DNA of 5,370 nt, taken from the IMG/VR virus record IMGVR_UViG_2534682078_000015; one strand, 5' to 3'. Positions 688-2,073 of the stretch are shown here, piece after piece. The translations under genes were made by a program, and so were the position numbers. Source of the DNA: a virus (lineage: Duplodnaviria > Heunggongvirae > Uroviricota > Caudoviricetes). Each line of letters begins with the position of its first letter. Position 1 is the first letter of the stretch. The notes below the pieces were generated by a model. The model had not been told where the DNA came from. It saw only the letters and a program-made list of their open reading frames with translations, and did not search any database.

Positions 688-2073
688 ATGACAGAGCGTG
701 AACTGTCCATTATCCGTGCGCTGGGTGAAGAATTCTCCACGGTGCTGGCGGATTTACAGCGCACATTTGAGGGGAAGATGGCCTCGCAGGCACAAGCGTT
801 TGAAGAGAAACTGACTTCCCTGTCGGCGGTATTACAGAAGCATGTGACGGTGGATGAGGTGCGTCCGGTTCTGCAGGCGATGGTGGATGACGCTGTGGGG
901 GCCATTCCGGTACCGCGTGATGGTCGTGATTATGATCCGGATGTACTGCAGCAGGCGGTGAATGATGCGGTCGCAAATATTCCGCAGCCGGCGGACGGTA
1001 AAAGTCTCACCCCGGATGATGTGCGTCCGATGCTTGAACAGATGGTGAAGGAGGCTGTAAGCCATATCCCTGTTCCGCGTGATGGTCGTGACTACGATCC
1101 GGAAGTACTGAAGCAGGCGGTGAATGATGCGGTCGCAAATATTCCGCAGCCGGCGGACGGTAAAAGTCTCACCCCGGATGATGTGCGTCCGATGCTTGAA
1201 CAGATGGTGAAGGAGGCTGTAAGCCATATCCCTGTTCCGCGCGACGGTCGTGACTATGATCCCGATGTTCTGCAGAAGGCGGTGAATGATGCGGTCGCAA
1301 ATATTCCGCAGCCGGCAGACGGTAAAAGTCTCACCCCGGATGATGTGCGTCCGATGCTTGAGCAGATGGTGAAAGAGGCGGTAAGCCATATCCCTGTTCC
1401 GCGTGACGGTCGTGATTACGATCCGGAAGTACTGCAGAAGGCGGTGAATGATGCGGTCGCGAATATTCCGGTACCGGCGGACGGCAAAAGTATTACCCCC
1501 GATGATGTGCGTCCGATGCTTGAACAGATGGTGAAAGAGGCGGTAAGCCATATTCCTGTTCCGCGTGATGGTCGTGACTATGATCCCGATGTTCTGCAGA
1601 AGGCTGTTCTGGATGCGGTGAGAGCCCTGCCGGCTCCGCAGGACGGGCGTGATGCCACGGCACTGGAAATAATCCCCGCCATTGACGATCAAAAATCCTT
1701 TCCCCGGGGCACGTATGCCACACACCTGGGCGGACTCTGGCGGGCGTATGAAAAAACGCACGGGATGCGGGGATGGGAATGCCTGGTTGACGGGGTGGCC
1801 GATATTGACGTCAGCATGACCGGCGAACGGTCGTTCACTGTGGTGGTCCGGCAGAGCAGTGGCCAGCGTACGGAAAAAACATTTTCCCTGCCGGTGATGC
1901 TCTACCGCGGTGTGTTCAGAGCCGGTGAAACCTACCACCCCGGTGATACGGTGACGTGGGGGGGCTCGCTGTGGCACTGCAACAGTATGACCGGTGATAA
2001 ACCCGGAGAAGCTCATTCATCAGGCTGGACCCTGGCTGCCAAACGTGGACGGGATGCAGGAGGCGGAAAATGA
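688..2073 (+). CDS. phage structural protein of unknown function with alternating 25/29-aa tandem repeats and a C-terminal carbohydrate-binding-like motif (possible head fibre or decoration protein)
   Basis: ATG at 688 is the first start after an in-frame stop at 646-648, with a purine-rich AGGGGGA 10 nt upstream. The 461-codon ORF has a helical-looking N-terminus, then repeats of IPVPRDGRDYDPDVLQQAVNDAVAN / IPQPADGKSLTPDDVRPMLEQMVKEAVSH, then a roughly 150-aa C-terminal region. Differences between repeat copies are mostly synonymous third-position changes, which supports this frame as coding. Its stop overlaps the next start (ATGA). Confidence 0.8.
   Translation: MTERELSIIRALGEEFSTVLADLQRTFEGKMASQAQAFEEKLTSLSAVLQKHVTVDEVRPVLQAMVDDAVGAIPVPRDGRDYDPDVLQQAVNDAVANIPQPADGKSLTPDDVRPMLEQMVKEAVSHIPVPRDGRDYDPEVLKQAVNDAVANIPQPADGKSLTPDDVRPMLEQMVKEAVSHIPVPRDGRDYDPDVLQKAVNDAVANIPQPADGKSLTPDDVRPMLEQMVKEAVSHIPVPRDGRDYDPEVLQKAVNDAVANIPVPADGKSITPDDVRPMLEQMVKEAVSHIPVPRDGRDYDPDVLQKAVLDAVRALPAPQDGRDATALEIIPAIDDQKSFPRGTYATHLGGLWRAYEKTHGMRGWECLVDGVADIDVSMTGERSFTVVVRQSSGQRTEKTFSLPVMLYRGVFRAGETYHPGDTVTWGGSLWHCNSMTGDKPGEAHSSGWTLAAKRGRDAGGGK
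904..1626 (+). repeat. in-frame tandem repeat, 162-bp unit (54 aa, made of two related subunits of 75 and 87 bp), 4 full copies plus a partial fifth
   Basis: Copies at 904-1065, 1066-1227, 1228-1389 and 1390-1551, partial copy 1552-1626, and a degenerate half-unit upstream at about 847-903. Copies 1 and 2 differ at 7 of 162 positions by my manual count; long stretches such as attccgcagccggcggacggtaaaagtctcaccccggatgatgtgcgtccgatgcttgaacagatggtgaaggaggctgtaagccat recur exactly. Confidence 0.9.

What the first reader, a model, noticed from the sequence alone, without database searches (positions are those of the whole stretch)
1915..2040. C-terminus of the repeat protein resembles a chitin-binding-type carbohydrate-binding module
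The segment FRAGETYHPGDTVTWGGSLWHCNSMTGDKPGEAHSSGWTLAA fits the spacing of aromatic, GD and Gly residues that I recall for CBM5/12 (ChtBD3-like) modules (W..G..Y..GD.V.Y.G..Y.C...P...W.L). A weaker possible second copy lies at about 1708-1790 (GTYATHLGGLWRAYEKTHGMRGWECLV). A glycan-binding module on a repeat stalk would suit a capsid or virion surface protein that binds polysaccharide.
Basis: partly seen in the sequence, partly recalled or inferred. Interest (0 to 1): 0.55.

Follow-up and report, generated by a model that had tools for sequence, protein, structure and literature searches.

The report
Chitin-binding-like knob on portal-linked fibre

Summary

The window is an EHEC lambdoid prophage (BP-4795/Stx type). 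The 461-aa ORF has a 47-aa N-terminal helix, a stalk of helix-PxPxDG repeats (0-6 copies in relatives) and a conserved 143-aa beta domain.

In about 60 of 72 loci from Gamma-, Beta- and Alphaproteobacteria and Acidobacteria, the gene lies directly after an HK97-type portal gene. It is fused in frame to the portal in phage 2851-type E. coli phages (a G6 versus G5 run), in a Pantoea prophage and in an acidobacterial contig.

The knob is at least as conserved as the portal, and it lacks the aromatic pair that binds chitin in CBM5. I read it as the tip of a portal-coupled fibre that binds a conserved partner. I do not read it as a host-specific polysaccharide adhesin. Ligand and location (inside or outside the capsid) are unresolved.

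The CBM assignment already exists in public annotation, so interest is modest.

The parts
1..691 (+). 3' part of the HK97-type portal gene. It reads in frame 1 up to the stop at 616-618. In relatives the gene continues in what is frame 2 of the window, to TGA 689-691.
   Evidence: Pfam Phage_portal E=9e-36. Alignment to BP-4795 and O111 11128 shows two 1-base deletions in the window, at about 595/596 and 605/606, that truncate the last ~25 codons.
672..676 (+). G5 run inside AGGGGGA. It is the likely Shine-Dalgarno sequence of the fibre gene, 11 nt upstream of ATG 688. G6 alleles fuse the portal and fibre genes in frame.
   Evidence: Alignment of the window, BP-4795 and O111 (G5) with phages 2851 and phi330 (G6). 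IMG/VR holds 83 G5 and 41 G6 contigs.
688..2073 (+). Portal-adjacent repeat ('fibre') protein, 461 aa. Its ATG overlaps the ancestral portal stop (ATGA), and its stop overlaps the ATG of the gp6-like gene (ATGA at 2070-2073).
   Evidence: ORF list. It matches BP-4795 ORF59 and PHROG 2271/1289/16748.
694..834 (+). N-terminal long helix (residues 3-49), with the conserved start M-x-ERELSII-x-A-x-GEEF.
   Evidence: Full-length AF2 secondary structure, pLDDT 72-79 in this stretch. The start is conserved in homologues.
913..1604 (+). Tandem array of 4.3 copies of 162 bp (54 aa). Each unit is two helix-plus-PxPxDG sub-repeats of about 27 aa. This is a flexible or extended stalk.
   Evidence: TRF: period 162, 92% matches. 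AF2: ten helices of 12-17 residues separated by linkers of about 12 residues, at low pLDDT. Relatives carry 0-6 copies.
1642..2070 (+). Conserved C-terminal all-beta domain (residues 319-461).
   Evidence: AF2 pLDDT 84.5. 5527 representative clusters at E<=1e-3, with the domain always C-terminal in the top 146.
1696..1800 (+). Module 1, a degenerate CBM5/12-like copy (residues 337-371).
   Evidence: hhalign against module 2, P=1.1e-4. 11 of 45 relatives give weak PF02839 hits. Strands 25-28, 31-37 and 43-49 of the domain model.
1795..1887 (+). Three-stranded beta meander between the two modules (residues 370-400).
   Evidence: AF2 strands 52-60, 64-71 and 76-82 of the domain model. No similarity to either module.
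1897..2055 (+). Module 2, the CBM5/12-fold module (residues 404-456). It contains the finding at 1915-2040.
2070..2396 (+). gp6-like head-tail adaptor (Ad1), the conserved downstream neighbour.
   Evidence: Pfam Phage_connect_1 and PHROG 40. Synteny in the GTDB loci.

Best explanation
The finding is the distal knob of a portal-coupled, fibre-like accessory protein of an HK97-type lambdoid prophage.

Shown:
- Residues 404-456 adopt a CBM5/12 ('ski-boot') beta fold and are remote sequence homologues of chitinase CBM5/12 modules.
- Residues 337-371 are a degenerate duplicate. Together with a three-stranded meander, the two modules form one conserved 143-aa domain.
- The protein has an N-terminal 47-aa helix and a stalk whose length varies freely. 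The stalk is built of helix-PxPxDG repeats here, PEPEPLPD repeats in a Pantoea prophage, and true collagen GXY triplets in an acidobacterial homologue.
- The gene sits immediately after the portal gene and before the gp6-like adaptor gene across several bacterial phyla.
- In several lineages it is one reading frame with the portal.

Inferred:
- The N-terminal end docks on, or is covalently continuous with, the flexible C-terminal tail of the portal. The protein is probably trimeric (collagen stalk in one homologue), which would give four fibres per dodecameric portal.
- The knob recognises a partner that does not change from host to host. Two things point this way. The knob is conserved at the level of the portal itself. 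It also keeps the CBM5/12 core but not the chitin-binding aromatic pair.
- My preferred partner is either a virion component or DNA at the portal vertex, or a universal GlcNAc-type glycan such as peptidoglycan. I do not favour an O-antigen, capsule or mucus glycan.
- Because portal C-termini face the capsid interior in all solved portals I know of, I lean towards an internal, portal-tethered location. This step is not shown.
For: Fold and homology:
- Internal duplication.

Architecture.

Synteny:
- The order portal, this gene, gp6-like adaptor holds in about 60 of 72 GTDB loci and in two metagenome contigs.

In-frame portal fusions:
- Phage 2851 has an 859-aa 'portal', caused by G6 instead of G5.
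- 41 G6 against 83 G5 contigs in IMG/VR. 24 of 30 complete G6 copies stay open into the knob, and 33 of 41 have a full 450-aa portal in frame upstream.
- Pantoea L029 (1248 aa) and acidobacterial L053 (736 aa, collagen stalk). P0139 (1237 aa) carries Phage_portal plus the knob.

Conservation: knob 59%, portal 54%, gp6 42% mean identity to the window over 38 loci.

Missing chitin-binding pair: with PMC8449059.

Precedent for a CBM5/12-like module used as a structural part: Cis13/All3316 in the Anabaena contractile-injection-system baseplate is the best PDB sequence hit in three of four searches (it ranks behind four deacetylase entries). It is described as Cis13 in PMC8894136.
Against: - No experiment places the protein in or on the virion, and I found no paper on it.
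- Fibres with coiled-coil or collagen stalks and CBM-like knobs are, as far as I know, external in every characterised phage (tail fibres, head fibres, whiskers). An internal fibre has no precedent.
- Genes that overlap by ATGA are easily fused by one-base indels. The G5/G6 difference lies in a homopolymer, where sequencing errors occur, so some fusions may be artefacts or pseudogenes.
- The window's own Pfam score is below the curated cut-off.
- Loss of the canonical aromatic pair does not exclude glycan binding through other exposed aromatics. F/Y/W at domain position 92 is kept in 43 of 45 members.
- The model is a monomer prediction. Trimerisation is inferred from one homologue's collagen stalk.
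Confidence: 0.55

Rival explanations
1. The protein is an external head fibre or neck whisker. The repeat stalk projects the CBM5/12 knob from the virion surface, where it binds a polysaccharide (host surface glycan, mucus or chitin-like material) and aids adsorption or retention. On this view the portal fusions are tolerated accidents, are processed, or are bypassed by internal initiation at the retained SD and ATG.
For: - CBM5/12 fold and homology.
- BFVD neighbours are collagen-repeat proteins, tail fibres and CBM5/12 proteins of phages. PHROG gives weak hits to tail-fibre families.
- A variable-length stalk with collagen in one homologue is typical of external fibres.
- The gene lies next to the adaptor gene, whose product sits outside the capsid.
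- The fusion alleles keep AGGGGGG and the ATG, so a separate product remains possible.
Against: - The chitin-binding aromatic pair is absent.
- The knob is conserved like a core structural protein across hosts from E. coli to Acidobacteria, unlike receptor-binding tips.
- In-frame fusions to the portal C-terminus are common and keep an open frame of about 860 codons. That is topologically hard to reconcile with an external location.
Confidence: 0.25
2. It is an assembly factor rather than a virion component. Tethered to the inner face of the portal, it recruits the protease-scaffold-capsid fusion protein to nucleate procapsid assembly around the portal, and the prohead protease then removes it.
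For: - It is always paired with the portal. These phages have an unusual order in which a protease-capsid fusion gene precedes the portal.
- It has a helical, elongated N-terminal part, as scaffolding proteins do.
- Fusion to the portal is tolerated. The knob co-evolves with the portal.
Against: - A freely variable stalk (0-6 repeats, about 25 repeats, or collagen) and a compact beta knob are not features of known scaffolding proteins.
- No cleavage data exist.
- Nothing here shows contact with the capsid protein.
Confidence: 0.12
3. The resemblance to CBM5/12 is convergent or due to chance. The segment is just a small beta hairpin domain unrelated to carbohydrate-binding modules.
Confidence: 0.04

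Closest known systems
CBM5/CBM12 chitin-binding modules (Pfam PF02839; S. marcescens ChiB CBM5, S. griseus ChiC ChBD 2d49, E. chrysanthemi EGZ CBD 1aiw, B. circulans ChiA1 ChBD 1ed7, Vibrio deacetylase CBM12 pair)
   Same: The same small three-stranded 'ski-boot' fold. The same core pattern, aromatic-x2-G-x2-Y-x2-GD-x-V-x-[YW]-x-G-x2-[YW] ... P-G ... W. Tandem arrangement, as in the Vibrio deacetylases.
   Different: There is no consecutive surface aromatic pair (ChiB W479/Y481 align to Ser/Glu and a gap). The module is cytoplasmically made, with no signal peptide context. It is attached to a phage portal-linked stalk, not to an enzyme. It scores below the Pfam cut-off in this protein.
CBM5/12-like modules in phage and phage-like fibres (Anabaena CIS Cis13/All3316 7b5h; Pa193 gp47; phage 7-7-1 and A-1(L) tail fibres)
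   Same: Best or near-best sequence and fold hits. A small beta module embedded in a fibrous phage-type protein.
   Different: Those are tail or baseplate fibres. This one is encoded in the head module, next to the portal, and can be fused to it.
SPP1 gp7 / Mu gpF (Phage_Mu_F) portal-associated minor head proteins
   Same: The gene lies immediately after the portal gene and is sometimes fused to the portal C-terminus. By analogy it would be an internal, portal-bound location (my knowledge of that family).
   Different: No Phage_Mu_F domain or any sequence similarity. The architecture is fibre-like, with a beta knob.
P22 portal C-terminal barrel
   Same: A long C-terminal extension of a portal that projects into the capsid. 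This is the only well-known precedent for what the fused alleles would produce (my knowledge).
   Different: The barrel is a continuous dodecameric coiled coil with no globular tip. There is no homology.
External trimeric head and neck fibres (phi29 gp8.5 head fibre, T4 fibritin whiskers, SPP1 gp12 collagen-like decoration)
   Same: Helical or collagen stalk plus a terminal knob. Accessory in nature, with variable length.
   Different: None of these is fused to a portal C-terminus. No sequence similarity was found.

Membership tests
CBM5/12 (Pfam PF02839 CBM_5_12) | Score at or above Pfam's curated gathering cut-off (26.2 bits) | tested here: not met
   The window protein scores 17.9 bits as the full 461-aa ORF, 22.1 bits as the last 136 residues and 21.9 bits as the 143-aa domain. 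At family level, 40 of 45 members hit at E<=0.01, the best at 1.4e-8, and many Klebsiella, Salmonella and Enterobacter homologues carry a precomputed PF02839 hit.
CBM5/12 | Small (~45-60 aa) antiparallel beta 'ski-boot' fold | tested here: met
CBM5/12 | Conserved core residues (Y...GD.V.[YW].G..[YW] and a C-terminal W) | tested here: met
   hhalign of the module profile against ChiB residues 456-499 gives P=5.7e-5, with Y462, G465, V468, Y470, G472, W475, P486, G487 and W492 aligned to the family's conserved Y, G, V, W, G, W, P, G and W. The ChiB sequence was verified.
CBM5/12 | Surface-exposed consecutive aromatic pair (Y-W or W-W; ChiB W479/Y481) that contacts chitin (PMC8449059) | tested here: not met
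   W479 aligns to Ser (Glu in the family consensus) and Y481 to a gap. Domain positions 114-128 hold no conserved aromatic residue.
CBM5/12 | Binds chitin, cellulose or GlcNAc oligomers | not testable with these tools
   This needs the purified domain (residues 319-461) and binding assays.
Phage portal protein (PF04860), the name this ORF carries in GenBank/RefSeq | Phage_portal domain | tested here: not met
   The 461-aa ORF has no PF04860 hit, whereas the upstream ORF has one (E=9e-36). The name comes from natural portal fusions and from PHROG 2271, which spans both genes.
SPP1 gp7 / Mu gpF minor head proteins | Phage_Mu_F domain | tested here: not met
   No such Pfam or PHROG hit.
SPP1 gp7 / Mu gpF minor head proteins | Gene directly downstream of the portal gene, with occasional portal fusion | tested here: met
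Collagen-like trimeric phage fibre | Uninterrupted G-X-Y triplet run | tested here: not met
   The window's stalk is made of helix-PxPxDG repeats. A true GXY run of about 30 triplets occurs in the acidobacterial homologue L053, and short GXY tails occur after the knob in several others.

The most novel reading that the evidence does not exclude
The protein is a fibre tethered to the inner (crown) end of the portal and carries a CBM5/12-derived knob inside the capsid. It would be a new kind of internal portal appendage, for example an axial core or a retainer for the DNA end. A slippery G5/G6 run in the Shine-Dalgarno region of its gene would switch it between a free and a portal-fused form, by mutation or by -1 frameshifting. 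A -1 slip on the G5 run (window 672-676) would give exactly the fused sequence ...AMFRGDTAKMTERELS, which is seen in four G6 contigs on the window's own sequence background.
Probability: 0.25. Interest if true: 0.7.

Novelty: new member of a known kind. Interest (0 to 1): 0.35.

Why it matters
The CBM5/12 assignment itself adds little. Relatives already carry the Pfam hit, and some E. coli copies are named 'carbohydrate binding domain protein'.

What would matter is the protein that carries the module:
- It is a very large family (5527 clusters at 50% identity), is always paired with an HK97-type portal, and has no described function.
- It is misnamed 'portal protein' or 'gp6-like connector' in thousands of EHEC, Klebsiella and Salmonella prophage annotations.
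- It is often flagged as a pseudogene, and its repeats break short-read assemblies.
- If it really hangs from the portal C-terminus, it would be a new portal accessory in the long-tailed Stx1/Stx2c phages that spread Shiga toxin genes.
- The G5/G6 switch would be a simple handle for testing what such an appendage does.

Tried and rejected
- PDB sequence search with the single 143-aa domain gave only weak hits (best E=0.095). It became informative only with family profiles.
- PDB search with the N-terminal 104 aa gave nothing meaningful (GAPDH at E>0.1).
- NCBIfam has no model for the protein.
- The module-1 profile against PDB gave no significant hit. The top hit was a Tudor-like domain at E=0.48.
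- Foldseek against PDB gave no hit at E<=1e-3. The afdb50 library was not available.
- The full-length AF2 model has low confidence (pLDDT 59). I used it only for secondary structure.
- Five literature searches (Stx phage portal/carbohydrate; CBM5 phage decoration; phage 2851; BP-4795; portal/collagen/head fibre) found no study of this protein. Two Stx-phage genome papers mention only 'portal proteins'.
- I considered a head-length ruler, because Stx2c phages are reported with elongated heads (PMC12029490). I rejected it as the main reading because repeat number varies from 0 to 6 among near-identical E. coli prophages.
- I considered a conserved Cys47-Cys113 disulfide (domain numbering). The two cysteines are not lost together in the 45-member alignment, and I had no coordinates to measure their distance.
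- The Pfam hits on the repeats (TetR_C_35, DUF4244, FliG_N and others) have no significant individual stretch. I discarded them as repeat or helix noise.
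Full report
WHAT THE WINDOW IS

The 5370 bases are 96-98% identical to the morphogenesis module of long-tailed lambdoid prophages of enterohaemorrhagic E. coli. These include Stx1a, Stx2a and Stx2c converting phages, BP-4795 and the PPompW phages. The module occurs in 1249 of 5426 complete E. coli genomes, at a median of 5 places per genome.

The gene order, from annotated relatives and from profile searches, is:
- portal (3' part);
- the 461-aa repeat protein;
- gp6-like adaptor Ad1;
- head closure protein;
- HK97 gp10-like protein;
- tail terminator;
- major tail protein with a C-terminal Ig domain;
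- gpG-like and gpT-like chaperones;
- the start of the tape measure protein.

Upstream in BP-4795 lie the small and large terminase subunits, a 645-aa protease-capsid fusion and a small ORF.

THE OBSERVATION

They are residues 410-451 and 341-368 of ORF 688-2073.

IS IT A CBM5/12 MODULE?

Sequence evidence:
- Pfam PF02839 matches residues 411-433 at E=1.6e-4 and 22.1 bits, under the curated 26.2-bit cut-off.
- The family is huge. phmmer against 1.84 billion representatives finds 5527 clusters at E<=1e-3 and 331 at E<=1e-30. In the top 146 the domain is always at the C-terminus.
- I took 45 members that are less than 62% identical to one another. 40 of them hit PF02839 at E<=0.01, the best at 1.4e-8, and no other family recurs.
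- A profile of the last module alone matches solved structures at E=2.5e-5 (the tandem CBM12 pair of Vibrio chitooligosaccharide deacetylases, both copies), 1.1e-4 (Cis13/All3316), 4.4e-4 (Pyrococcus chitinase ChBD 2rts) and 0.017 (ChiA1 ChBD 1ed7) (the whole-domain profile is).
- hhalign of that profile against residues 456-499 of Serratia ChiB, whose sequence I verified against the PDB, gives P=5.7e-5 over 36 columns.

Structural evidence:
- AF2 on residues 319-461 with 28 homologues gives pLDDT 84.5 and an all-beta domain of ten strands.
- Foldseek against the PDB finds the same set, but with E>=0.036.
- Against viral models, Foldseek finds phage proteins named 'collagen triple helix repeat', 'ChiC_BD', 'CBM 5/12' and tail proteins.

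I conclude that the fold assignment and remote homology are sound.

THE SECOND COPY

- Profile-profile comparison of residues 337-371 with the last module gives P=1.1e-4 over 31 columns, in the register SYPRGTYATHxGGLWR..T...GWECIV against YxxGDxVTWGGSLWHC..T...WTLAV. Both controls against the intervening segment score nothing.
- 11 of 45 relatives give weak PF02839 hits on this piece (best 0.004). The window's own copy gives none, and the PDB profile search is empty.
- In alphaproteobacterial homologues only the second half of the domain is recognisable.

WHAT IS MISSING

In CBM5, chitin is bound by a conserved consecutive aromatic pair (Y-W or W-W) plus a third aromatic residue, while two further aromatics are core residues (PMC8449059). 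In ChiB the pair is W479/Y481 (my knowledge, consistent with the verified numbering).

In the hhalign alignment, W479 faces Ser in the window (Glu in the family consensus) and Y481 faces a gap. The core Y, W and G positions are kept. Domain positions 114-128 contain no conserved aromatic residue in 45 members.

The module is therefore CBM5/12 in fold and ancestry, but it lacks the canonical binding surface. Whether it binds sugar some other way is open.

THE PROTEIN AND ITS SURROUNDINGS

Tandem Repeats Finder reports 4.3 copies of 162 bp at 913-1604, at 92% identity, with an internal period of about 75-81 bp.

The full-length AF2 run has low confidence (pLDDT 59). It predicts a 47-residue N-terminal helix, then ten helices of 12-17 residues separated by linkers of about 12 residues (the IP-x-P-x-DG-x-D motifs), then the beta domain.

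Homologues keep the start (M-x-ERELSII-x-A-x-GEEF) and the knob but have quite different stalks:
- PELPD- or PEPEPLPD-type repeats, about 25 of them in a 1237-aa protein;
- collagen-like GRDGKDG tails after the knob;
- in an acidobacterial contig, about 30 uninterrupted G-X-Y triplets.

That collagen stalk implies a trimer.

Synteny is striking:
- In two metagenome contigs and in about 60 of 72 loci from one-genome-per-species GTDB contigs, the gene immediately follows an HK97-type portal gene, usually with overlapping stop-to-stop frames.
- These loci come from Enterobacterales, Pseudomonas, Burkholderiales, Neisseriaceae, Rhizobiales, Sphingomonadales and Acidobacteriota.
- In most Gamma- and Betaproteobacterial loci a gp6-like adaptor gene follows.

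PORTAL FUSIONS

PHROG 2271 ('portal protein', 859 positions) covers both the window's portal fragment and the repeat protein. PGAP calls the O111 copies 'frameshifted portal'.

A junction peptide searched by tblastn separates phage records into two classes: two-piece (176 nt) and one-piece (177 nt). The one-piece class includes phage 2851, where a single 859-aa 'portal' is annotated.

The difference is one G in a run. TTCAGGGGGAT gives ...AMFRGILRK-stop, overlapping the ATG of the next gene. TTCAGGGGGGAT gives ...AMFRGDTEKMTERELSII....

In IMG/VR:
- The G6 form occurs in 41 contigs and the G5 form in 83.
- 33 of the 41 G6 copies have a full 450-codon portal in frame upstream.
- 24 of the 30 complete G6 copies stay open through the knob.
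- Four G6 copies sit on the window's own sequence background (DTAK instead of DTEK), so the switch has probably happened more than once, or some of these are homopolymer sequencing errors.

Independent in-frame fusions exist in a Pantoea prophage (1248 aa) and in the acidobacterial contig (736 aa).

A -1 ribosomal slip on the G5 run would also produce exactly the fused sequence. This is my inference and is untested.

CONSERVATION

Over 38 loci with a full knob, identity to the window averages 59% for the knob, 54% for the portal and 42% for gp6. The knob is the more conserved of the first two in 28 of 38 loci. Receptor-binding tips that follow host surface glycans do not behave like this. A part that contacts an invariant partner does.

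INTERPRETATION

Shown: the CBM5/12-fold knob, the degenerate duplicate, the variable stalk, the obligate pairing with the portal, the recurrent portal fusions, and the loss of the canonical aromatic pair.

Inferred: the N-terminus works at the portal's C-terminal tail, the protein is a trimeric fibre, and the knob binds something that is the same for all these phages.

All solved portals I know of place the C-terminal crown inside the capsid. I therefore lean towards an internal, portal-tethered appendage. The nearest analogies by position are SPP1 gp7 / Mu gpF and the P22 portal barrel.

I hold this loosely. Every characterised fibre of this build is external, and one-base fusions of ATGA-coupled genes can be accidents. 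A transient assembly factor is a weaker one.

Cis13/All3316 is the best PDB sequence match in three of four searches. It shows that such modules can serve as structural parts of phage-like machines.

NOVELTY

The CBM assignment is already in public data: precomputed PF02839 on relatives, and the name 'carbohydrate binding domain protein' on E. coli copies. I found no paper on the protein itself.

I rate the finding as a new member of a known kind, of modest interest. The portal-tethered reading is the most novel possibility that my evidence does not exclude.

Noticed in passing
window 672-676 (G run in AGGGGGA), with ATG 688 and the ancestral portal stop 689-691: A G5 run, the likely Shine-Dalgarno sequence of the repeat-protein gene, decides whether portal and repeat protein are two genes (G5) or one ~860-aa fusion (G6, as in phage 2851). 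IMG/VR holds 83 G5 and 41 G6 contigs, and four G6 copies sit on the window's own sequence background. A -1 slip on G5 would give the same fusion.
   Followed up: yes
window about 595/596 and 605/606: There are two single-base deletions (GG to G) relative to BP-4795 and O111 11128 near the 3' end of the portal gene. The window's portal reads ...SSAHARRRI-stop at 616-618 instead of ending at 691. This is either decay of the prophage or a sequencing error.
   Followed up: partly
window 3196-3540 (tail terminator gene); insertion at 3261, deletion at 3459/3460: A one-base insertion and a one-base deletion relative to two close relatives put about 200 nt of the tail terminator gene out of frame (ORFs 3196-3438 and 3233-3622). 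With the portal indels, that makes four single-base indels in 5.4 kb.
   Followed up: partly
window 913-1604, and relatives L079-L199: The copy number of the 162-bp (54-aa) repeat varies among near-identical E. coli prophages. Free ORFs are 245, 299, 353, 407 or 461 aa (0-4 copies), and fused forms carry up to 6. Most database entries are C-terminal fragments labelled 'partial', probably because short-read assemblies break in the repeats.
   Followed up: yes
window 4693-4699: The slippery heptamer A_AAA_AAG lies just before the gpG-like stop (TAG 4700-4702). The -1 frame is open from there into the gpT-like ORF (4726-5007). This is the classic G/GT tail-chaperone frameshift arrangement.
   Followed up: partly
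window about 4050-4304 (major tail protein residues 149-233): The major tail protein carries a C-terminal immunoglobulin-like domain (Pfam Ig_2, I-set and Ig_3; PHROG 'Hoc-like'). It is a second possible surface-adhesion module in the same virion.
   Followed up: no
window 3569-3583 and 5017-5038: There are G+C-rich hairpins followed by T runs. One lies after the tail terminator gene, upstream of the major tail gene. The other lies after the gpT-like gene, before the tape measure gene; it is palindromic, with T runs on both strands. The total number of such sites in the window is not above the shuffle expectation.
   Followed up: no
public annotation of homologues (P0011, P0051, P0063, P0074 and others): The same protein is named 'phage portal protein', 'phage gp6-like head-tail connector protein, partial', 'carbohydrate binding domain protein' or 'hypothetical protein'. 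NCBIfam has no model for it.
   Followed up: partly
L053 64-2271 (Acidobacteria MAG contig); L029 1686-5429 (Candidatus Pantoea communis): These are single open frames that join a complete portal to the knob. In L053 the link is a true collagen G-X-Y stalk of about 30 triplets. In L029 it is a long Ser/Pro/Asp-rich linker plus about 25 PEPEPLPD-type repeats.
   Followed up: partly
L001 6178-8115; L005 1855-3989; L006 1925-3925: In this phage group the prohead protease and major capsid protein (fused in BP-4795 and L006) are encoded upstream of the portal. This is the reverse of the usual HK97 order of portal, protease, capsid.
   Followed up: no
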